DNA of 29,913 nt, from IMG/VR virus record IMGVR_UViG_2724678986_000028; one strand, given 5' to 3'. Origin of the DNA: a virus. Taxonomy: Duplodnaviria; Heunggongvirae; Uroviricota; Caudoviricetes. Below are positions 7,899 to 16,029 of this stretch, piece after piece (within the stretch, counting starts at the first letter, position 1; every line of letters begins with the position of its first letter). The translations under genes and the position numbers were made by a program. A model generated the notes under the pieces. That model had not been told where the DNA came from. It ran no database searches and saw only the letters and a program-made list of their open reading frames with translations.

Positions 7899-8858
7899 AT
7901 GAAAATTTGTATCGACGACGGCTCCACCAACATCAAGCTGGCGTGGACTGAGAACGGCGAACGCCGCAACGCCATCAGCCCGAACAGCTTCAAGTCGGAA
8001 TGGTCTGCGCCGTTCGGTGGCACGCAGCCCGCGAACTACATGCTTGATGGCGTGCGCTATGGTTTTGATCCGGTCAGCGATCGCTTTGTCCAGACGACCG
8101 ACACGCAATACCAGTACAGCGATGTGAATATAATTGCCATTCATCACGCGCTGGTCAAATCAGGCATCACACCACAGGAAGTGGATGTGGTTGTCACCCT
8201 GCCACTGAGCGAGTATTTCGATACAAACGCACAGCCGGACATGGCCAACATCAACCGCAAAAAAGCGAACGTCATGCGCCCGGTGGAGTACCAGAACGGC
8301 GAAGCATTCACTATCCGTAACGTACGGGTTATGCCTGAATCCATTCCGGCTGGCTTTAAGGCACTGGCTGACATGAGTCCGTTTGAATCCCTGCTGATTG
8401 TGGATTTGGGCGGAACCACTCTGGATGTGGCAAAGGTTCAGGGGCAACTGGCAGGTATCAGCCAGGTGTTTTGCGATCCACACGTGGGCGTTTCTCTGAT
8501 GGCCGATGCCGTACTGTCGGTGATGGCCACTAACGGTATGCGCACCAGTCACCACATCGCCAATACCATTATCGAACATCGCCATGATGAAGCCTGGCTG
8601 CGCCAGCACATCCACAATGACGCGCATTACGCCAGCCTGATGGCGGTTATTCGTGAAAAGGAAGAAACACTGAAACAACGCGTGATCCGCGCGCTGGCGG
8701 GTTTTTCGGGTTACGGGCGGGTGATGGTTGTCGGTGGAGGGGCGGAGATTGTGGCACCCGCTATCCGCGAAGCCTGCGGAGTTAATGCGACTTTCATCGC
8801 GGACGGGGTGCCACAGTTTGCTCTGGTTAATGGGCTGTACGCAATGGACAAGGAGTAA
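7899..8858 (+). CDS. parM: ParM/StbA-like actin-fold partition ATPase
   Basis: 319 aa. Actin-fold motifs IDDGSTNIKL (phosphate 1), IVDLGGTTLDV (phosphate 2) and VVGGGAE (adenosine). Collinear over its full length with plasmid R1 ParM as recalled. RBS AAGGA upstream. Confidence 0.85.
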   Translation: MKICIDDGSTNIKLAWTENGERRNAISPNSFKSEWSAPFGGTQPANYMLDGVRYGFDPVSDRFVQTTDTQYQYSDVNIIAIHHALVKSGITPQEVDVVVTLPLSEYFDTNAQPDMANINRKKANVMRPVEYQNGEAFTIRNVRVMPESIPAGFKALADMSPFESLLIVDLGGTTLDVAKVQGQLAGISQVFCDPHVGVSLMADAVLSVMATNGMRTSHHIANTIIEHRHDEAWLRQHIHNDAHYASLMAVIREKEETLKQRVIRALAGFSGYGRVMVVGGGAEIVAPAIREACGVNATFIADGVPQFALVNGLYAMDKE

Positions 8859-9237: not shown

Positions 9238-9828
9238 ATGAGCGAAATCAACTATCAGGCATTACGTGAACGTTATTCACCTGTGCCAGTACCGAAATGC
9301 CCTATTTGCGGCGAGGAAATGTCAATTCAGCGAATATCTGGAGCACAGGTTGTTTATGCCTGCTCCGGTTATGGTGATGATGGAGATTTCAAAATTGGCC
9401 GAACTCTTGCCGACGAACATTATGAAAAATCACGCGTAACAGTGTTGGATGTCGGGGATCCTGAAGTATTGGCGCTACTTGATTGGCTGGAAACCAAAGA
9501 CAACCGAATCGCTGAACTGGAAAAAATCGCCACTGACTATGCACTTAAATTCCAGAAAGCACAGGACGCATTAAAGTATGCCGCTTTGCTGCATAGCAGG
9601 ACGGCGCAACAAACAAATAATTTTGCAGTATCGCTTCCGGACATAAGCGAATATTTCATTAATGACGTATTTCAGCCCTTGCGATACGAGCGGGATGTTG
9701 AAAGAGCCATCATAAAGGCTGGCGGAAAAGCATTGTGGCAGGAGAAACACGAGGACAGAACGCATCAGTCCTGCGATGTAAATCGTGGATGGTTTAGCCC
9801 ACTGACGACAGATAAAAATAACACCTGA
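9238..9828 (+). CDS. Hypothetical protein, Cys-containing N-terminus and central coiled-coil-like segment
   Basis: 196 aa; AAGGAG 9 nt upstream; N-terminal CPICGEEM...YACSGYG. The 3' half is AT-richer. No family assigned. Confidence 0.5.
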   Translation: MSEINYQALRERYSPVPVPKCPICGEEMSIQRISGAQVVYACSGYGDDGDFKIGRTLADEHYEKSRVTVLDVGDPEVLALLDWLETKDNRIAELEKIATDYALKFQKAQDALKYAALLHSRTAQQTNNFAVSLPDISEYFINDVFQPLRYERDVERAIIKAGGKALWQEKHEDRTHQSCDVNRGWFSPLTTDKNNT

Positions 9829-9840
9829 TCCCCCTCAAAC

Positions 9841-9866
9841 CAGGGCGATAATCGCGCATCGCCCTG
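9841..9866. repeat. Stem-loop CAGGGCGA-N10-TCGCCCTG, same arms as 9183-9200
   Basis: Identical 8-nt arms to the element upstream of the 196-aa gene; sits 12 nt after its stop. Confidence 0.5.
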
Positions 9867-9867
9867 C

Positions 9868-9901
9868 TGCACAATAGTGCACAAGTTTGCACAATTTTTT
9901 T
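9868..9901. repeat. Three TGCACAA iterons at exact 10-bp phasing followed by a T7 tract
   Basis: TGCACAA at 9868, 9878 and 9888, then TTTTTTT at 9895-9901; lies in the noncoding region upstream of the portal end. Confidence 0.5.
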
Positions 9902-10268
9902 GAACGACTTTTTACCCTTCCGGCCCGCATGGCGGCTGGATCCGTCAAGGATCCGTGCGTGCACAAAAAAACGCGCTTTTTCTGCGCGCAGGTGACGGGG
10001 GAACAGCCCGCGTTTCAGGGGGTAAATAGCATCCCCTGAACGATGTCGCAGCGACACAACAGAATGGCTGTATTTCTCACGCTGAGCGTGAAGAATACGT
10101 GAGGGATTCTGATTTGATGGGGTGAAAGGTAAGGCCGTCAAAATCGCACTGAGGCGGCGAGAACATGCAGTCAACGCGGTGGGATTGCGTAAGAGTCTGA
10201 CCGTCGATGGTGGCGATAAACTGGAAGGCGTCGTGAAATTATCTGACTGATACAGGAGCTGGAGAGTC

Positions 10269-10291
10269 GGGGCATAAATTTTTTATGCCCC
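10269..10291. repeat. Palindrome GGGGCATAAAtttTTTATGCCCC downstream of the portal gene stop
   Basis: Perfect 10-bp arms, 28 nt downstream of the Q stop on the minus strand. No flanking U tract, so terminator status is uncertain. Confidence 0.4.
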
Positions 10292-10318
10292 GGCGAAGCA
10301 GCAGACAAGCGAAGCGCG

Positions 10319-11365
10319 TCAGGATGTGGGCTGGGTGTCTAACAGTGCGTAAGGGTTAAAGCGGATCACCTCTTCGCCAAGCCAGTCATTGATGTGCTTC
10401 ATGGCCTCCATGACGGGCATCAGCTCGTTAATTGCGTAAACCCGCGCGGCCTTCTCCACATCACCAAACGCACTTTTTTCACCCGGCATCGCCCCCATCA
10501 GTTGCGGCGGAACGCGGTGCGCAGCCAGCACATCATCACGGGATGCCGCCTTAACATTCATGAACTCATCCTTTGCGGTGATCTGCTGGAACGGCAAAAT
10601 TTGCACCCCCTCTTTGCCCCCGTTGGGCGCATGAATGAGCACGTTTTTAAACGCACCACCACCACGCGCACCCTGTAGCGTTTCTTTCAGGGAGTCCATG
10701 CTTTCGCGGTTTACCTGCGCTGCACCGATGTAGATGATGCACCCGGCGTGGGATCCGTTGTCGTAATACAGTTTTCTGAACATGTCCGCCGAATGAGACA
10801 GGCTGGCCGAGAGTAATGCGCCGAGATATTCCGGCATGCCGTAGATTTCCTGGTTAATGTCCGGATTCATCAGGTGGCACACTTTGCCTGGGCGAAACTG
10901 AAACGCATCCTTGCCATCCTGCACATACCACCATGATTCAAGATCGCTTCCGCGTCGCATGTATTTCGCCAGGGCGTGCCGTAATTTAAGCGGTTCGCCG
11001 AGCATATTGCTTCGAAGCTCAAGGAATGCGTTACCGAACACAAACCAGTCCAGCGCCAGCGCCGAGAAATCCTGCCGGGAAAGCAGCGGGTGCGGGATGT
11101 AGCAACCGAGCAATACATTGCGCTTAAAGTAAAGCGCAGACTGATGCCAGGACGTTTGCCGGGCGGCTCTTGCCAGACCGTACCAGTCCACCGGGGTTTC
11201 ATACCACCGCCCGTTATCAGCACAGTACATATTGTCCAGCAGGTCATGCCCGGTCAGGCGATAAGGACCATCAAATGTGAATGCACTGAGCGATGATTCT
11301 TTCCTGAGCGCATCAGCGAGATCAATGCGTGAACTCATGCGCACTTTTTTATTTTTTCTGCTCAT
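10319..11365 (-). CDS. Q: Portal protein, P2 gpQ family
   Basis: 348 aa; position (after cos, before terminase), size and 1-nt stop/start overlap with gpP match the P2 Q-P arrangement. Confidence 0.85.
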   Translation of the reverse strand: MSRKNKKVRMSSRIDLADALRKESSLSAFTFDGPYRLTGHDLLDNMYCADNGRWYETPVDWYGLARAARQTSWHQSALYFKRNVLLGCYIPHPLLSRQDFSALALDWFVFGNAFLELRSNMLGEPLKLRHALAKYMRRGSDLESWWYVQDGKDAFQFRPGKVCHLMNPDINQEIYGMPEYLGALLSASLSHSADMFRKLYYDNGSHAGCIIYIGAAQVNRESMDSLKETLQGARGGGAFKNVLIHAPNGGKEGVQILPFQQITAKDEFMNVKAASRDDVLAAHRVPPQLMGAMPGEKSAFGDVEKAARVYAINELMPVMEAMKHINDWLGEEVIRFNPYALLDTQPTS

Positions 11366-13116
11366 CAGAACTCCATAACCGTGAAACGCTCGTTTTCTCC
11401 TTCGCCGCCAATCGGTTCGTTAATGACAGCAAGCATGGTTGCCCACGCAAGGTCGCCGTGGCTGATCCCCCTCGCGCGGTCCGTTTCGTAAGTGATAAAG
11501 CCGCCCGGTGTTTTCACCTTACGCACGGCGTTAAAGGCCGCGACCAGCTCGCGTTCGGCGCGATCGTATTCCCACCGCCCGGCACGCATTATTTGCAGCA
11601 TTTTCAGTACCAGCGACCGTTTTGATGACAGCGTGAAGGTGTACGGAATAGCAGCAGGGAAAAACCGTTTCACTATCTGATAAACAGCCTCCCCGTTCCC
11701 GCCCGTCACATCAATGCCGATGTGTTCCACGTTGTAGCGATACGTGAACTCTTCAATGACTCTGGCCTGTTCTTCAAACTCCAGCCCCTGAACGCGTCGC
11801 GTCTCCACCGTTCGAAAACGGCCACCAGGAACAGCCGGAGGAACCACCACGGACACAGCGCCGCTGTCGCCGTTGCCACTACTGCCGTTTGCGTCATACC
11901 CAATCCATACCGGACGATTCCCCATCGGGCGGGGAGCAAAAGGTTTCCAGTCTTTCCAGTCGTCGTATCCGTCAACACCGCAGCCAATCAGGATATTCAG
12001 GTTAAATGCCGATTCCCCTTCGCGGACAAACTCACACATATAGAGATTGAGGAACTCGTCTTCGGTGTTTTCATCACGAATTTCGTCGATATCGGTGTGT
12101 TTCCAGCCGTGATTGACCACATCTTCCAGCGTGACAATTTGCCGCCACGTCCGGTCAGGGCAGATAAGCCCGTTATGCAGCGTTTTCCAGTCCACAGAAA
12201 AACGCTGGCGTTTATGCGTGGCCTTTTTCTCGTTCCAGCGGTCGCCGTTCCAGTAGGCGTATGCCTCGTGCGTTTCGGTGGATGGCGTGGAGAAGTAGGT
12301 GCGCCGCAGTCCGCTGAGGGTTGCCATAGCGCCAGCCACCTTGCGCAGTTCAGCAAAGCGACTGACCCAGAAAAATTCATCAAAATAAAAATTGCCCGTA
12401 TAGGACTGTGCCGACGCAGCAGAAGTGCCGAGAAAATGCAGCTCTGCGCCGTTGGAGAGGATGATTTTATCGCCCCCTTTCAGCTCCACATCAACTTCAG
12501 CCGCGGCCTTCTGAATAATGCTTTTAAACTGGAACGCCTGACGACGCGACGCAGACAAAAAAATCTGGTTACGCTGGTAAGGTTGCGCCACATCGTCACG
12601 CAGCGCCATCAGCAGAGCTTCCTGTGCAAAATACCAGGTCGCCCCAATCTGTCGGGATTTCAGGATCATCCTGTTACGTATCCCGGCTTCCCTGCAAAGG
12701 GTCAGGGAGTCAAACCAGCCCCGCTGATGCCACTCCAGCCTGCTGATGATTTTTTCCCGCAGTGCGGCAATCTGTTCCGGCGTGAAATGATTTTTGAGTT
12801 TTTTCGCCCGGCCTTTCTTTCCTGTGACCGTCGCATCCGGCTGGCCATCATGCAGTTTTTTAAGCTGCCGGGTCAGCAGGTCTATTTCCTTAAAGTCACC
12901 GCCTGTTTTATTCTGTTTTTCAGTAAGCTGGATGAGGCGCGCATCGATGGACTGCGTGACACGCTGCACGGGTGGCGTTTCATCCCACTGGTCGCGTTTT
13001 TTCCACGCATAAATCGTGTTCGGGTTTATTCCCATCAGACGTGATATTTCTGCGGGCGGATAACCCTGCCAGTAAAGTTGCCGCGCACGCTGGCGCACAA
13101 AAGCGTCCTGAATCAT
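11365..13116 (-). CDS. P: Terminase ATPase (large) subunit, P2 gpP family
   Basis: 583 aa, divergent from the O-N-M-L capsid operon as in P2. Confidence 0.85.
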   Translation of the reverse strand: MIQDAFVRQRARQLYWQGYPPAEISRLMGINPNTIYAWKKRDQWDETPPVQRVTQSIDARLIQLTEKQNKTGGDFKEIDLLTRQLKKLHDGQPDATVTGKKGRAKKLKNHFTPEQIAALREKIISRLEWHQRGWFDSLTLCREAGIRNRMILKSRQIGATWYFAQEALLMALRDDVAQPYQRNQIFLSASRRQAFQFKSIIQKAAAEVDVELKGGDKIILSNGAELHFLGTSAASAQSYTGNFYFDEFFWVSRFAELRKVAGAMATLSGLRRTYFSTPSTETHEAYAYWNGDRWNEKKATHKRQRFSVDWKTLHNGLICPDRTWRQIVTLEDVVNHGWKHTDIDEIRDENTEDEFLNLYMCEFVREGESAFNLNILIGCGVDGYDDWKDWKPFAPRPMGNRPVWIGYDANGSSGNGDSGAVSVVVPPAVPGGRFRTVETRRVQGLEFEEQARVIEEFTYRYNVEHIGIDVTGGNGEAVYQIVKRFFPAAIPYTFTLSSKRSLVLKMLQIMRAGRWEYDRAERELVAAFNAVRKVKTPGGFITYETDRARGISHGDLAWATMLAVINEPIGGEGENERFTVMEF

Positions 13117-13270
13117 TGCTCCCCCTGAGTAATTACAGGAAGATTACCCGCGCGCGAAACTGTTCTCCTTAACCCCCTGTTCTGGCCGTTTTCTTACAAC
13201 AAAATCCCTTTGTATCAGCCTGTTACGCTTTGCCATCATGACTGAAGAACCAGTCAGAGGGGCAAAAACT

Positions 13271-14107
13271 ATGGCTAATGAAAAAAAGACATCCCGCAAA
13301 AAGTTTCGCGTGGCTGTCTCCGGATCAACTGTTGATGGCCGTGAAATCAGTCCGGTGCATCTGCGTGAAGCCGCCGAGAACTTCAACCCGGATGTTTACG
13401 CTGCCCGCGTGAACGTTGAGCACTATCTCTCGCCATGCCCGTCAAGCGAATTTTCCGCAATGGGCGATGTCACCGCGCTGAGTACGGAAGATATTACGGA
13501 AGGCCCGCTGGCCGGACGTACTGCGCTGTATGCAGAAATCGAACCGACCGAGCGCATGAAGCAGCTTGTCGCTGACGGCAAGAAAATCTATTCCAGTATC
13601 GAACTGCACCCGCAGTTCTCCGTTAACGGGCGTGCCTATCTGGTCGGGCTGGCGATGACCGACACCCCGGCAAGCCTGGGCACTGAGCGCCTGAAATTCA
13701 CGGCACAGCAGCGTCAGGCGGTGATGACGTTCAACAGTATCCAGGGTGAAGCACCGCTTATCTCCGAAGCCATCGAGTCTGAAATCATCGAAATGGCAGA
13801 ACAACGCCAGGAAGAAGGCACCCAGTGGTTTAACCGCGTAATGGGGATTATTGGTCGTGGCCGCAAAGCGGATGACGCCAGTTTCTCCCGTATTCAGGAA
13901 GCGGTGGAAGGCGTTGCAACATCACAGGCCGACATTATCGACCGTTTTAATGTGCTGGAAACCCGCCATCAGCAGGACCGCCAGAAAATCACGTCACTGA
14001 CCACAGAGCTGACAGCACTGAAGGAAAAACTGCGCACGCAGGACGGCGATCCGCAGAACCGCTTCACCGCAACGGGCGCAGCCTCCGACCAGCTGGCTGA
14101 CTTCTGA
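13271..14107 (+). CDS. O: Capsid scaffolding protein, P2 gpO family
   Basis: Start at ATG 13271 (MANEKKTSRKKFRVAVSG...), with GAGGGG upstream; this N-terminus matches gpO as recalled. The ATG at 13238 in the track lacks an RBS. Confidence 0.8.
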   Translation: MANEKKTSRKKFRVAVSGSTVDGREISPVHLREAAENFNPDVYAARVNVEHYLSPCPSSEFSAMGDVTALSTEDITEGPLAGRTALYAEIEPTERMKQLVADGKKIYSSIELHPQFSVNGRAYLVGLAMTDTPASLGTERLKFTAQQRQAVMTFNSIQGEAPLISEAIESEIIEMAEQRQEEGTQWFNRVMGIIGRGRKADDASFSRIQEAVEGVATSQADIIDRFNVLETRHQQDRQKITSLTTELTALKEKLRTQDGDPQNRFTATGAASDQLADF

Positions 14108-14130: not shown

Positions 14131-15183
14131 ATGAATCTGGTGATGTCAGATATTACCCGCAACAAGCTGGGTTGCTATATGGCGCAGCAGGCGTCGCTTA
14201 ACAATATCCCGGTATCTGCACTGGTATCGCGATTTACCGTGGAACCCGCGGTGCAGCAGCGTTTTGAAAACGCCTCAAAGGAAAGTACCGAATTTACGAA
14301 AAGAATTAACGTGATCGGCGTGACCGACCAGAAAGGCGAAAAAATCCTCCTGGACACCACCGGGCCAATTGCGCGCACGAATAGCAGTTATGACGGCATC
14401 AAACGCCGTAACCCGAATAACGTGATCGATATGAAGTCTCGTCAGTACCAGTGCGAACAGGTGAACTACGATACCTTTATTTCGTACCCACAGCTTGATA
14501 CCTGGGCGGCCCACAGCGATTTTCAGTCCCGTATCAGTACACAGATCGCCCGGCAGGTAGCGCTTGATCGCATCATGATTGGCTTTAACGGCACATCCCA
14601 CGCCTACGAGTCTGATTTTCACACCAACAAGCTGCTTCAGGACGTTAACGTGGGCTGGCTGGAGCACATCAGAACCGATGCCAGCGAGCGCGTAATGAAT
14701 GACGTGACGCTGACCTCCCGCAACATGGACAACACTGTGGCGCACGCGGGTAAGTATGCGAATGCCGATGCTCTGGTACAGGATGCGCGCTCATCCCTGC
14801 TGGATGAATGGCACAAGGAAGCTGACGACCTCGTGGTGATTATGGGGCGCAACCTGTTTAACTCGCTGCGTCTGCCCGTGCTGAACAGCATCAGCGGCCA
14901 GAATCCCAATGCGGAATTACTTGCCGGGCAGCTCATCCTGTCATCGCGCACCATTGGCGGGCTGGGCGTGTTCCTTGCGCCGTTCTTCCCGGATGCAACG
15001 ATGCTTATCACCTCGTTCAACAACCTGTCGATTTACTGGCAGAAAGGTTCAATGCGTCGTCTGATGAAAGACGAGCCGGAATACAACCGCATCGCCACCT
15101 ACCAGTCCATCAATGACGCTTATGTCGTTGAAGACTATGGCAAGTGCGCGATGGTCACTGGCCTGAAGTTCGCCGACAGCTAA
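14131..15183 (+). CDS. N: Major capsid protein, P2 gpN family
   Basis: 350 aa; AAGGAG upstream; blocks FTVEP..., INV..V.D.KGEKI and IGFNG... match gpN as recalled. Confidence 0.85.
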   Translation: MNLVMSDITRNKLGCYMAQQASLNNIPVSALVSRFTVEPAVQQRFENASKESTEFTKRINVIGVTDQKGEKILLDTTGPIARTNSSYDGIKRRNPNNVIDMKSRQYQCEQVNYDTFISYPQLDTWAAHSDFQSRISTQIARQVALDRIMIGFNGTSHAYESDFHTNKLLQDVNVGWLEHIRTDASERVMNDVTLTSRNMDNTVAHAGKYANADALVQDARSSLLDEWHKEADDLVVIMGRNLFNSLRLPVLNSISGQNPNAELLAGQLILSSRTIGGLGVFLAPFFPDATMLITSFNNLSIYWQKGSMRRLMKDEPEYNRIATYQSINDAYVVEDYGKCAMVTGLKFADS

Positions 15184-15228: not shown

Positions 15229-16029
15229 ATGATTACTCCTGCACAACAACACTGGCAGAACGTGATGGCACAGCGCGCAGGCCGGGCGAATGAAGGTGTG
15301 GACCACGCCGCGTGTACCGCGCATGAAGAAGTGCTGTATCGTCTGCGTCTGGCACAGGCCAGGCTAAAGGCCATACAGGCCAGAAGCGCGAAAGCCGCCA
15401 TCAAAAAAGAGTTGTTGCCGGACTTTTCCGGCTGGATTGAGGGAACGCTGGAGGCTGACGGCGGGCAACAGGACGAAGTAATTGCCACGCTGATGGTGTG
15501 GGCGATTGACTGCGGCGATCTTCCGCTGGCGCTGCGTATTGGTGCATATGTGGTCCGTCACAACCTCATCATGCCGGATAACTTTGGCCGTACTGCTGCC
15601 ACGGTACTGACCGAAGAAATCTGCAACCCGGTACTGACGCAGGCTGGGACGGATGCCGACGCGGATTTATCCGCCTTTATCGAACCACTGGACACACTTT
15701 GGGAAATTGTCGCCAACCAGGACATTCCGGACGAAGTGCGCGCCAAATTATGCAAGGCGTGTGCCTTTGCCCGTCGTGGCCTGACCGATGCAGACAACAT
15801 GGCCTCATCACTGAAGCTGCTGCGCGAAGCGATGCACCTGAACCCGAACGCAGGTGTGAAACGCGAGATTGCAACCCTTTCCCGCGCCCTGAAAAAAGCC
15901 GATTCCGCAGCCGAACCAGAAGACGCCAGCGCACAGCAGGCGCAGGACGAAAGCAGCAAAAATAAAAAGACAACGCGGAAGCCTGCAACACGAAAAACCA
16001 CCGCGACGCAGAAGGCAAAGCGCGGTTAA
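15229..16029 (+). CDS. M: Terminase endonuclease (small) subunit, P2 gpM family
   Basis: 266 aa; N-terminus MITPAQQHW and ELLPDFSGW resemble gpM; basic C-terminal tail; GGAGAG RBS. Confidence 0.8.
   Translation: MITPAQQHWQNVMAQRAGRANEGVDHAACTAHEEVLYRLRLAQARLKAIQARSAKAAIKKELLPDFSGWIEGTLEADGGQQDEVIATLMVWAIDCGDLPLALRIGAYVVRHNLIMPDNFGRTAATVLTEEICNPVLTQAGTDADADLSAFIEPLDTLWEIVANQDIPDEVRAKLCKACAFARRGLTDADNMASSLKLLREAMHLNPNAGVKREIATLSRALKKADSAAEPEDASAQQAQDESSKNKKTTRKPATRKTTATQKAKRG

What the first reader, a model, noticed from the sequence alone, without database searches (positions are those of the whole stretch)
9829..10318. Noncoding cos-type region with helically phased iterons and several hairpins
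About 490 bp without a convincing ORF lies between the accessory genes and the portal gene, where P2 has cos. It contains three TGCACAA iterons at exactly 10-bp spacing (9868-9894) followed by T7, a G-rich 19-mer GGTGACGGGGGAACAGCCC (9991-10009) that loosely resembles the P2/186 cohesive-end sequence as I recall it, a hairpin CAGGGG-N11-CCCCTG (10016-10038) and a 10-bp-arm palindrome (10269-10291). The iterons are good candidates for terminase recognition (cosB-like) sites. The exact cohesive-end position cannot be fixed from sequence alone.
Basis: partly seen in the sequence, partly recalled or inferred. Interest (0 to 1): 0.45.

Follow-up and report, generated by a model that had tools for sequence, protein, structure and literature searches.

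The report
Packaging (cos) site of P2-like prophage
This non-coding stretch is very probably the DNA-packaging (cos) site of a common P2-like prophage of E. coli, built on the same plan as the classic P2/186/P4 site, so it is an ordinary feature that had simply not been annotated for this phage lineage.

Summary
The window is an E. coli chromosome carrying a P88-like (Xuanwuvirus) P2-family prophage. Portal, large terminase, scaffold, capsid and small terminase genes lie in P2 order beside the region.

Measured from the candidate 19-mer (9991-10009), TGCAC repeats sit at -123, -113, -103 and -31. In P2, P4, 186, PSP3 and phiRSA1, whose ends are annotated or reported, TGCAT repeats sit at about -123, -111, -101 and -29.

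Conservation among about 1,170 E. coli genomes begins exactly at the first repeat (9868). Satellite elements without portal or terminase share only the repeats and the 19-mer with the window (95-97% identity against about 31% background).

- The 13/19 match to the P2 end is not above chance on its own.
- The 10016-10038 hairpin is not conserved.
- The 10268-10292 palindrome sits where P2 and 186 have the terminator after the portal gene.

Exact ends (within about 2 nt) and binding of the repeats by small terminase remain inferences. This is a new member of a known kind, of modest interest.

The parts
9841..9866 (+). Hairpin CAGGGCGAT-N8-ATCGCCCTG that closes the variable accessory ('hotspot') module after the ead/Ea22-like gene (9238-9828). 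It lies outside the conserved cos block.
   Evidence: -9.8 kcal/mol, z = -3.4. Positions 9860-9867 differ in 62-80% of 50 distinct relatives, whereas 9868 onward is nearly invariant. In other relatives the cargo ends in a GC stem plus T-run just before the first repeat.
9868..9894 (+). Three phased repeats R1-R3, TGCACAA at 9868, 9878 and 9888 (-123, -113, -103 from the 19-mer). Candidate recognition array for small terminase.
   Evidence: 0 of 100 shuffles. The TGCAC cores are invariant in 50 distinct relatives. Offsets are kept in 94 distinct IMG/VR flanks and match the TGCAT repeats of P2, P4, 186, PSP3 and phiRSA1. Identity to a satellite is 97% here against a 31% background.
9895..9901 (+). 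T7 tract directly after R3. It may produce an intrinsic bend.
   Evidence: Invariant in 50 relatives. Not present in P2 or 186, so it is specific to this lineage.
9902..9959 (+). Spacer with GC-rich dyads (CCGCC..GGCGG type; GGATCC-N5-GGATCC at 9938-9954). The length is kept but the sequence drifts between lineages.
   Evidence: folding not above shuffles, z = -1.0. Identity to the satellite is only 53%. Other lineages and P4 carry GGCGCGGTCTGAG at the same offset.
9960..9971 (+). Proximal repeat R4, TGCACAA (-31), running into an A7 tract. Counterpart of TGCATTAAAA in the P2/P4 55-bp core.
   Evidence: TGCA[CT] starts at -31 in 83 of 94 distinct flanks.
9972..9988 (.). GC dyad CGCGC-N7-GCGCG directly beside the cut site. 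Counterpart of CCGCCC..GGGCGG in P2. With the A/T run it reads as a terminator-like site on the minus strand.
   Evidence: (minus-strand terminator-like match 9989..9971).
9991..10009 (+). Candidate cohesive-end 19-mer GGTGACGGGGGAACAGCCC (cosN). Predicted nicks lie between 9990/9991 on the top strand and 10009/10010 on the bottom strand, within about 2 nt.
   Evidence: At the position homologous to the P2/186 ends. Identical in the distant phage phiT5282H while the flanks diverge. The same 19-mer occurs in 82 of 120 IMG/VR hits. Intermediates lead to the P2 sequence. Two assemblies recorded as phage genomes have private deletions here. A satellite contig ends at nucleotide 16 of it.
10010..10040 (+). 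Right flank: GCG, then a G-run (10018-10022), and the hairpin TTCAGGGG-N11-CCCCTGAA.
   Evidence: Position 10033 differs in 78% of relatives with no compensating change. Other lineages keep 'CGC..GGGG' but no hairpin. Identity to the satellite is only 39%.
10041..10265 (.). Conserved stretch of unknown role between cos and the terminator. It includes an inverted repeat at 10070-10098 and the RefSeq-annotated 42-aa ORF at 10122-10250.
   Evidence: No Rfam family reaches threshold.
10266..10294 (-). 13-bp-stem palindrome just downstream of the portal stop codon. Counterpart by position of the P2 tQ / 186 tW terminator of the terminase-portal operon. It has no T-run.
   Evidence: (-12.9 kcal/mol, z = -6.2). 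Not listed by the terminator scan because no T-run follows it.
10319..11365 (-). Portal gene (gpQ homologue).
   Evidence: 47% identity to P2 Q, E = 1e-113. Annotated as phage portal protein.
11365..13116 (-). Large terminase gene (gpP homologue), the enzyme expected to cut at cosN.
   Evidence: 44% identity to P2 P, E = 3e-166.
15229..16029 (+). Small terminase gene (gpM homologue), the proposed reader of the repeats.
   Evidence: 37% identity to P2 M, E = 8e-44. phrog_74 terminase small subunit, E = 1.7e-80.

Best explanation
Positions 9868 to about 10040 are the cos (cohesive end) packaging site of a P88-like P2-family prophage.

**Shown**
- The block is laid out exactly as in P2, 186 and P4. 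Three repeats with a TGCA core, one helical turn apart, lie about 100-123 bp before the cut. They are followed by a spacer of fixed length, a fourth repeat with an A-run at about -30, a GC dyad touching the cut site, and a G-rich 19-mer.
- It is the only sequence that phages of this group share with portal-less, terminase-less satellites.

**Inferred**
- The small terminase gpM (15229-16029) binds the phased repeats on one face of the helix.
- The DNA, helped by the T7 and A7 tracts, bends so that the large terminase gpP (11365-13116) is placed over the 19-mer.
- gpP makes two nicks 19 nt apart (9990/9991 on the top strand, 10009/10010 on the bottom strand). This gives 5'-protruding GGTGACGGGGGAACAGCCC ends, and the genome is then packaged.

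The 10266-10294 palindrome is a separate element, the likely terminator of the terminase-portal operon.
For: **Gene context**
- The portal, terminase, scaffold, capsid and small terminase genes are in P2 order.
- The accessory 'hotspot' lies on the other side, as described for P2-like phages (PMC9122126).

**Architecture**
- TGCAN offsets are -123/-113/-103/-31 here.
- They are -123/-111/-101/-29 in P2 and -124/-111/-101/-29 in P4 and 186.
- They are -120/-111/-101/-29 in PSP3 and -129/-110/-100/-29 in phiRSA1.
- These are nearly the only TGCAN in each 150-nt flank.

**Conservation**
- The offsets and the 19-mer are kept across 94 distinct flanks while the spacer drifts.
- phiT5282H, about 74% identical over the aligned part, keeps the identical 19-mer.

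**Boundary**
- In most of 1,167 E. coli genomes, homology starts at 9867/9868.
- Variability falls from about 0.7 to about 0 at that point.

**Satellites**
- Elements with Ogr/Delta, a P4-alpha-like primase and integrases, but no portal or terminase, carry the block.
- Against the window they are 97% identical in R1-R3 and 95% in the 19-mer, with about 31% background.

**Physical ends (circumstantial)**
- Two assemblies recorded as phage genomes (Chuche, P88_4B11) have 7-nt and 5-nt deletions in or at the 19-mer. Neither deletion is found in any complete E. coli genome that carries the block.
- A 12.7-kb satellite contig with a perfect 507-nt terminal repeat ends at nucleotide 16 of the 19-mer.

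**Viability**
- The inducible phage P88 (PMC5285337) is 100% identical over 9950-10030.
Against: - No virion end has been mapped for this lineage. The held papers on P88 do not mention cos.
- The 19-mer's similarity to P2 is at chance level.
- An alternative alignment shifts the left cut by 2 nt.
- Binding of the repeats by gpM has not been tested here. I found no paper in the held library that tests it for P2.
- Global TerL and TerS identity does not track 19-mer type. The prophage in E. coli 23CRST028 has a P2-type 19-mer but a gpP 67% identical to the window's and only 46% to P2's.
- Klebsiella lineages have degenerate distal repeats.
- One IMG/VR variant (L102) lacks the 82 bp between R2 and R4. 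Either the distal repeats are dispensable or that copy is defective.
Confidence: 0.85

Rival explanations
1. The region is cos, but the cuts are not at 9990/9991 and 10009/10010. For example, the left nick could lie 2 nt further left (9988/9989), or the overhang could have another length.
For: MAFFT aligns the 'CGGGG' of the P2 end with 9996-10000, which places P2 position 1 at 9989. Related cos cores differ in length (a 20-nt block between GCGCGCA and GCGCGC in L019; phiCTX is annotated with a 21-nt end). The satellite contig stops at nucleotide 16, not 19.
Against: A gapped alignment through the intermediates keeps both boundaries (GG[CT]GA at the start, AGC[AC]C at the end) and a length of 19. 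The flank GCGCGCA lies directly before the GG in both the window and L019.
Confidence: 0.2
2. The repeats, A/T runs and dyads are mainly transcription signals. They would be terminators or insulators that stop the accessory or early transcripts (plus strand) and the late portal-terminase transcript (minus strand) from crossing, rather than terminase recognition sites.
For: The simple scan calls a terminator-like site on the plus strand at 9877-9892 plus T7, and on the minus strand at 9989-9971 plus T-run. In P2 the old-tin mRNA start lies close to the repeats.
Against: The R2/R3 hairpin folds no better than shuffles (z = -0.19). The T-run is absent in P2 and 186 although the repeats are kept. 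The repeats keep their distance from the cut whatever the orientation or identity of the neighbouring cargo. They are kept in satellites with different neighbouring genes. Cargo modules bring their own terminator just before R1.
Confidence: 0.08
3. The TGCACAA array is a centromere or iteron site for the ParB-like partition protein encoded upstream (7899-8858), or for replication, and is unrelated to packaging.
For: A partition-protein homologue (phrog_691, E = 7e-90) lies 1 kb upstream. Phased iterons are typical of partition and replication sites. TGCACAA arrays with 10-bp phase occur in many unrelated bacteria.
Against: Homology with relatives begins at R1, and the upstream genes, including the partition gene, are replaced by other cargo in most relatives. 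The same offsets occur in P2, 186, P4 and phiRSA1. Satellites keep the array.
Confidence: 0.03

Closest known systems
cos sites of coliphages P2 and 186 and satellite P4 (19-nt 5' cohesive ends; 55-bp core shared by P2 and P4, Ziermann & Calendar 1990 as cited in PMC9594776 and PMC5694545)
   Same: Position next to the portal gene, with the variable accessory locus on the other side. A G-rich 19-mer beginning GG[CT]GA. A GC dyad touching the cut. A proximal TGCAY plus A-run at about -30. Three TGCAY repeats at about -123, -112 and -102. Sharing with satellites.
   Different: The repeat is TGCAC(A/G)A rather than TGCAT, with exact 10-bp spacing rather than 12 + 10. The 19-mer differs at 6 of 19 positions, and the 55-bp core is only 28/55 identical, so BLAST does not detect it. 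T7 and A7 tracts are added. There are about 310 bp rather than 168 bp between the 19-mer and the portal stop codon.
[quoted passage not shown]
   Same: A P2-family cos flanked by annotated short repeats. The proximal element GCAGAAAGTGCAGAAAAAGAGG closely resembles the TGCACAAAGTGCACAAAAAGAGG of the E. coli 23CRST028 prophage that carries window-type repeats.
   Different: The repeat is TGCAG-type and the offsets are not the same (-110, -29). No exact match to the IHF consensus was found in the window region.
Phage lambda cos (cosN nick site plus cosB with R repeats bound by the small terminase gpNu1 and an IHF-induced bend; from general knowledge)
   Same: The same logic: a nick site flanked on one side by an array of short repeats at fixed distance, with intrinsic or protein-induced bending. 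It is read by a small terminase that positions the large terminase.
   Different: There is no sequence or protein homology to lambda cos or Nu1, and the overhang is 19 nt rather than 12 nt. From memory, P2 packages from circular monomers rather than concatemers. Here the repeats lie on the side away from the terminase genes.

Membership tests
P2-family (Peduoviridae) cos site | Lies between the variable accessory locus and the portal gene, with portal and large terminase on one strand and scaffold, capsid and small terminase on the other. | tested here: met
   ORF map. Identity to P2 Q/P/O/N/M is 47/44/37/41/37%. PHROG terminase small subunit. Layout of the P2 and 186 records.
P2-family (Peduoviridae) cos site | G-rich 19-nt sequence of the GG[CT]G[AT][GC]G.GGGG type at the cut site. 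| tested here: inconclusive
   GGTGACGGGGGAACAGCCC fits the pattern, and intermediates link it to P2 (the phiRSA1 end GGTGAGGCGGGG... is given in PMC5694545). However, 13/19 identity to P2 is at chance level within the window.
P2-family (Peduoviridae) cos site | 55-bp core conserved between P2, P4 and relatives. | tested here: inconclusive
   Only 28/55 positions are identical without gaps, the same as unrelated sites in the window. The parts of the core are all present in the same order and at the same offsets (TGCAY, A-run, GC dyad, 19-mer).
P2-family (Peduoviridae) cos site | TGCAN repeats at about -123, -112, -102 and -30 from the cut. This feature was derived here from P2, P4, 186, PSP3 and phiRSA1. 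I do not know whether it has been described before. | tested here: met
   kept in 94 distinct relatives.
P2-family (Peduoviridae) cos site | The same site is carried by satellites that depend on the helper's terminase. | tested here: met
   Satellite-type elements without portal or terminase carry the block.
P2-family (Peduoviridae) cos site | Virion DNA has 5'-protruding cohesive ends produced at this site. | not testable with these tools
   There are only circumstantial hints: private deletions in two assemblies recorded as phage genomes and a contig that ends inside the 19-mer.
Lambda-type cos (cosN plus cosB with an IHF site) | IHF consensus site between the repeats and the nick site. | tested here: not met
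   No exact WATCAR-N4-TTR match in 9829-10318 on either strand.
Rho-independent terminator (for the 10266-10294 palindrome) | GC-rich stem-loop followed by a T-run on the transcribed strand. | tested here: not met
   There is a strong stem but no T-run on either strand, and the scan does not list it. Its position matches P2 tQ and 186 tW, so a terminator role is inferred from position only.

The most novel reading that the evidence does not exclude
The phased TGCAN repeats are the small-terminase recognition array of the whole P2 family and of its satellites. The repeat variant together with the 19-mer variant (P2 type: TGCAT with GGCGAGG...; P88 type: TGCACAA with GGTGACG...; phiCTX type: TGCAG) would then define packaging-compatibility groups. 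These groups would decide which satellites can exploit which helper prophages in a given E. coli strain.
Probability: 0.4. Interest if true: 0.5.

Novelty: new member of a known kind. Interest (0 to 1): 0.3.

Why it matters
- It places the packaging site of a prophage family present in about one fifth of complete E. coli genomes, where none of the records retrieved here annotates it.
- It gives a simple rule for finding cos in P2-like prophages and their satellites: TGCAN at about -123, -112, -102 and -30, then a GC dyad, then a G-rich 19-mer.
- It marks the exact edge of the defence-gene 'hotspot' next to cos.
- It suggests testable helper-satellite specificity groups.
- It does not change the current understanding of how these phages package DNA.

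Tried and rejected
- **Direct similarity to P2 cos.** The P2 and 186 19-mers, the 55-bp core and a 205-bp P2 junction were scanned against the window. Nothing exceeded chance, so the case rests on architecture and intermediates.
- **Rfam.** There was only a sub-threshold gyrA hit over the palindrome. I ignored it.
- **Records that begin or end at the 19-mer.** None was found in the phage collection. LR595891 starts at about 9913, which appears arbitrary.
- **Co-variation of 19-mer type with large terminase and of repeat type with small terminase.** With five phages there was no clean signal. The natural chimera L019 shows that the two parts assort independently.
- **Literature.** The P88 papers do not mention cos. 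No held paper covers gpM binding sites. Christie & Calendar 2016 is not held. The minimal cos length from Ziermann & Calendar 1990 could not be read, so I did not use my recollection of it.
- **Packaging direction.** It could not be settled (one search was not followed further).
- **IHF site.** None was found.
- **Genome-wide scan for the repeat pattern.** Most hits were unrelated TGCACAA arrays in other phyla. Only the Enterobacterales hits were informative.

Full report
**What the window is.** The queried stretch (9500-10450) is 100% identical to the chromosome of E. coli 2013C-4538 (NZ_CP027582.1). The finding sits inside a P2-family prophage.
- Portal is at 10319-11365 (minus strand) and large terminase at 11365-13116 (minus strand).
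- Scaffold is at 13238-14107, major capsid at 14131-15183 and small terminase at 15229-16029 (all plus strand).
- These five proteins are 47, 44, 37, 41 and 37% identical to P2 Q, P, O, N and M.
- The closest phages are P88-like (genus Xuanwuvirus), at 93-98% DNA identity.
- On the left of the region lie accessory genes: a ParB-like partition protein (7899-8858) and an ead/Ea22-like protein (9238-9828). This locus is described as the cos-adjacent hotspot of P2-like phages (PMC9122126).

**The observation.**
- All the reported elements are present.
- The three TGCACAA copies at exact 10-bp spacing do not occur in 100 shuffles, even with three mismatches allowed.
- The palindrome near the portal gene has 11 perfect nucleotides per arm and folds into a 13-bp stem.
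- The 19-mer matches the P2 end at 13 of 19 positions. Five sites in the window do as well or better, and blastn sees no similarity to a 205-bp P2 cos junction.

**Comparison with mapped cos sites.** The P2 and 186 records start at their annotated cohesive ends. I joined the ends of P2, P4 and 186 and aligned them on the first base of the 19-mer. The last bases of the PSP3 and phiRSA1 records were treated the same way. The positions of TGCAN in the 150 nt before the 19-mer are as follows.

| Element | Positions of TGCAN |
|---|---|
| Window | -123, -113, -103, -31 |
| P2 | -123, -111, -101, -29 |
| P4 | -124, -111, -101, -29 |
| 186 | -124, -111, -101, -29 |
| PSP3 | -120, -111, -101, -29 |
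| phiRSA1 (a Ralstonia phage whose ends were reported experimentally, PMC5694545) | -129, -110, -100, -29 |

- These are nearly the only TGCAN in each flank. The extras are listed, for example TGCAA at -35 in P4, 186 and PSP3.
- In every case the proximal copy is followed by an A-run and then a GC dyad that touches the cut: TGCATTAAAACCGCCCCG..CGGGCG in P2 and TGCACAAAAAAACGCGC..GCGCGCA here.
- The window therefore has the P2 plan with a different repeat word and a different 19-mer.
- The phiCTX record annotates 'R' repeats and an IHF site around its cos. Repeats next to a P2-family cos have therefore been noticed before in at least one phage.

**Natural intermediates.**
- A different P2-like prophage, in E. 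coli 23CRST028, combines window-type repeats with a P2-type core. The repeats are TGCACAA x3 at 10-bp spacing, and the core is GCGCGCA|GGCGAGGCGGGGGAGCAAGC|GCGCGC.
- Prophages of Trabulsiella carry GGCGACGGGGGGACAGCGC and GGCGCCGGGGGGACAGCGC behind the same repeats, and an Arsenophonus contig carries a further GGCGCGG-type core.
- These link the P2 and window 19-mers step by step. They support the boundaries 9991-10009, although one automatic alignment shifts the left boundary by 2 nt.

**Conservation.**
- The block occurs in 1,167 of 5,426 complete E. coli genomes. In most rows of an even sample of these hits, homology begins at query base 368/369, which is 9867/9868, the first base of R1.
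- In 50 distinct E. coli-type copies the fraction differing from the window drops from 0.62-0.80 at 9860-9867 to 0-0.02 at 9868-9872. The TGCAC cores, T7, A7 and the 19-mer region are invariant (this set was selected on the 19-mer, so only the other elements are independent).
- Enterobacter phage phiT5282H is about 74% identical over the aligned part. It keeps the repeats and an identical 19-mer and then diverges completely.
- Among 120 IMG/VR hits to a 16-mer spanning the left cut, 82 carry the identical 19-mer and 22 a Klebsiella variant (GGTGACGGGGGGCAAGCCC).
- Over 94 distinct flanks, TGCA[CT] starts pile up at -123 (56), -113 (62), -103 (68) and -31 (83), while the spacer changes.
- A genome-wide scan that used only the repeat pattern found Enterobacterales prophages (Pantoea, Mixta, Enterobacter, Citrobacter, Erwinia, Symbiopectobacterium). 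Each has a GG[TC]G.. core 121-123 bp downstream.

**Satellites as a natural deletion analysis.**
- Four loci have the block but no portal gene downstream. They encode an Ogr/Delta zinc finger, a P2-family capsid protein homologue and a P4-type integrase. One also encodes part of a P4-alpha-like primase.
- One of them is a complete 12,207-bp unit on contig QAKE01000006.1, which has a perfect 507-nt terminal repeat.
- Ungapped identity of this satellite to the window is shown below.

| Region relative to the 19-mer | Identity to the window |
|---|---|
| Upstream background | 0.31 |
| R1-R3 | 0.97 |
| Spacer | 0.53 |
| -33 to 0 | 0.76 |
| 19-mer | 0.95 |
| First 28 nt after the 19-mer | 0.39 |
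| Further downstream | about 0.33 |

- P2 and P4 are reported to share only their cos site (PMC9122126, PMC9594776). The same relationship here marks the repeats and the 19-mer as what the helper's terminase needs.

**Hints about physical ends.**
- Two assemblies recorded as phage genomes differ from all others by deletions in or at the 19-mer. Chuche lacks 7 nt inside it, and P88_4B11 lacks 5 nt at its right edge.
- Neither variant occurs in any complete E. coli genome. The best matches are 93% identical or less and 5-7 nt longer, in 789 and 731 genomes respectively. Mis-joined ends at a physical terminus would explain this.
- The satellite contig ends at nucleotide 16 of the 19-mer, followed by AGATGTGTA, which I recall as the start of the Tn5 mosaic-end adapter. 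An arbitrary contig end would fall in the 19-mer about 0.2% of the time.
- These points are suggestive, not proof.

**Other elements in the interval.**
- The hairpin at 10014-10040 folds well here. However, 78% of relatives carry a change at 10033 without compensation, and other lineages have no hairpin there, only 'CGC..GGGG'.
- The palindrome at 10266-10294 lies just after the portal stop codon, where P2 and 186 have terminators tQ and tW. It lacks a T-run.
- The 42-aa ORF at 10122-10250 is annotated in RefSeq and intact in 45 of 50 relatives. Its variable sites show no third-position excess (12/12/9).
- The hairpin at 9841-9866 belongs to the variable cargo.

**Mechanism.**
- Shown: the homology of plan with mapped cos sites, the conservation, and the sharing with satellites.
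- Inferred:
  - gpM binds the phased repeats.
  - The A/T tracts bend the DNA.
  - gpP nicks 19 nt apart, giving 5' overhangs.
- Not resolved: the exact cut positions (within about 2 nt), the direction of packaging, and whether R1-R3 are essential. One IMG/VR copy, L102, has lost the 82 bp between R2 and R4.
- A five-phage comparison did not show large-terminase identity tracking the 19-mer type.

**Verdict.** The finding is a correct call of an ordinary feature: the cos site of a very common P2-like prophage lineage. It is unannotated in the records retrieved and too diverged from P2 for BLAST, but it is built on the same plan.

Noticed in passing
L228+L260 (contig QAKE01000006.1, 12,723 nt; binned as a 'Bacillota' MAG); also L209 (Apirhabdus apintestini CP138906.1), L178 (Ca. 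Erwinia dacicola), L061 (IMG/VR): These are P4-like satellite-type elements of about 12.2 kb that carry the P88-type cos block. They encode an Ogr/Delta zinc finger, a 240-aa protein with no family hit, their own P2-family major capsid protein homologue (PF05125, E = 7e-82), two integrase-like genes and a P4-alpha-like primase, but no portal or terminase. A satellite with its own P2-type capsid gene is unusual for P4-like elements as far as I know.
   Followed up: partly
L228 oriented end (contig QAKE01000006.1, position 1): The contig ends at nucleotide 16 of the 19-mer, followed by AGATGTGTA (the start of the Tn5 mosaic-end adapter, from memory). The orientation of the adapter remnant does not fit a simple read-through, and I could not explain it.
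   Followed up: partly
L007 (phage Chuche, PP925824) and L003 (P88_4B11, LR595891), aligned to window 9991-10011: These two assemblies, recorded as phage genomes, have 7-nt and 5-nt deletions in or at the 19-mer. Neither deletion is seen in any of the roughly 730-790 complete E. coli genomes that carry the block. They are probably mis-joins at the physical ends.
   Followed up: partly
L102 (IMGVR_UViG_2648501669_000002): This copy has the same cargo end as the window, but R2 is fused to the proximal repeat, which deletes the 82 bp in between (R3, T7, spacer). It also has one change in the 19-mer (…CAGTCC). It is either a defective prophage or evidence that the distal repeats are dispensable.
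   Followed up: no
Window about 10255-10318; e.g. ON470599 (vB_EcoM-569R5) and several E. coli genomes including an ST131 strain: In a subset of relatives the match to the region comes in two pieces, with about 0.6 kb of extra DNA (an annotated hypothetical gene) between cos and the portal gene. This is a second small insertion spot on the portal side of cos.
   Followed up: no
Window 10041-10265 (includes 10122-10250): About 220 bp between cos and the portal terminator are well conserved. RefSeq annotates a 42-aa ORF here (WP_000676505.1), but the ORF shows no codon-position bias, and the stretch contains an inverted repeat (10070-10098, z = -3.3). No role could be assigned.
   Followed up: partly
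There are many copies per Bryobacteraceae genome, and Akkermansia has conserved TGCACAAGAC arrays upstream of a conserved sequence. These are unrelated to P2-like cos and look like repeat or iteron families of their own.
   Followed up: no
Window 9931-9943, and -60 to -48 in P4, L026, L030 and the Klebsiella lineages: A further shared element, GGCGCGGTCTGAG (here GGCGGCTGGATCC), sits at the same offset in P4 and in several lineages of this group. This suggests that the spacer also holds a conserved contact.
   Followed up: no
Window 7899-8858 and 9238-9828: The cargo next to cos in this prophage is a ParB-like partition protein (phrog_691) and an ead/Ea22-like protein. Most relatives carry different genes at this place.
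   Followed up: partly
L198 (contig NZ_JBQPOM010000071.1, labelled Vagococcus sp. WN89Y): An E. coli-type cos block lies on a contig assigned to a Gram-positive genus. Contamination or mis-assignment of that assembly is likely.
   Followed up: no
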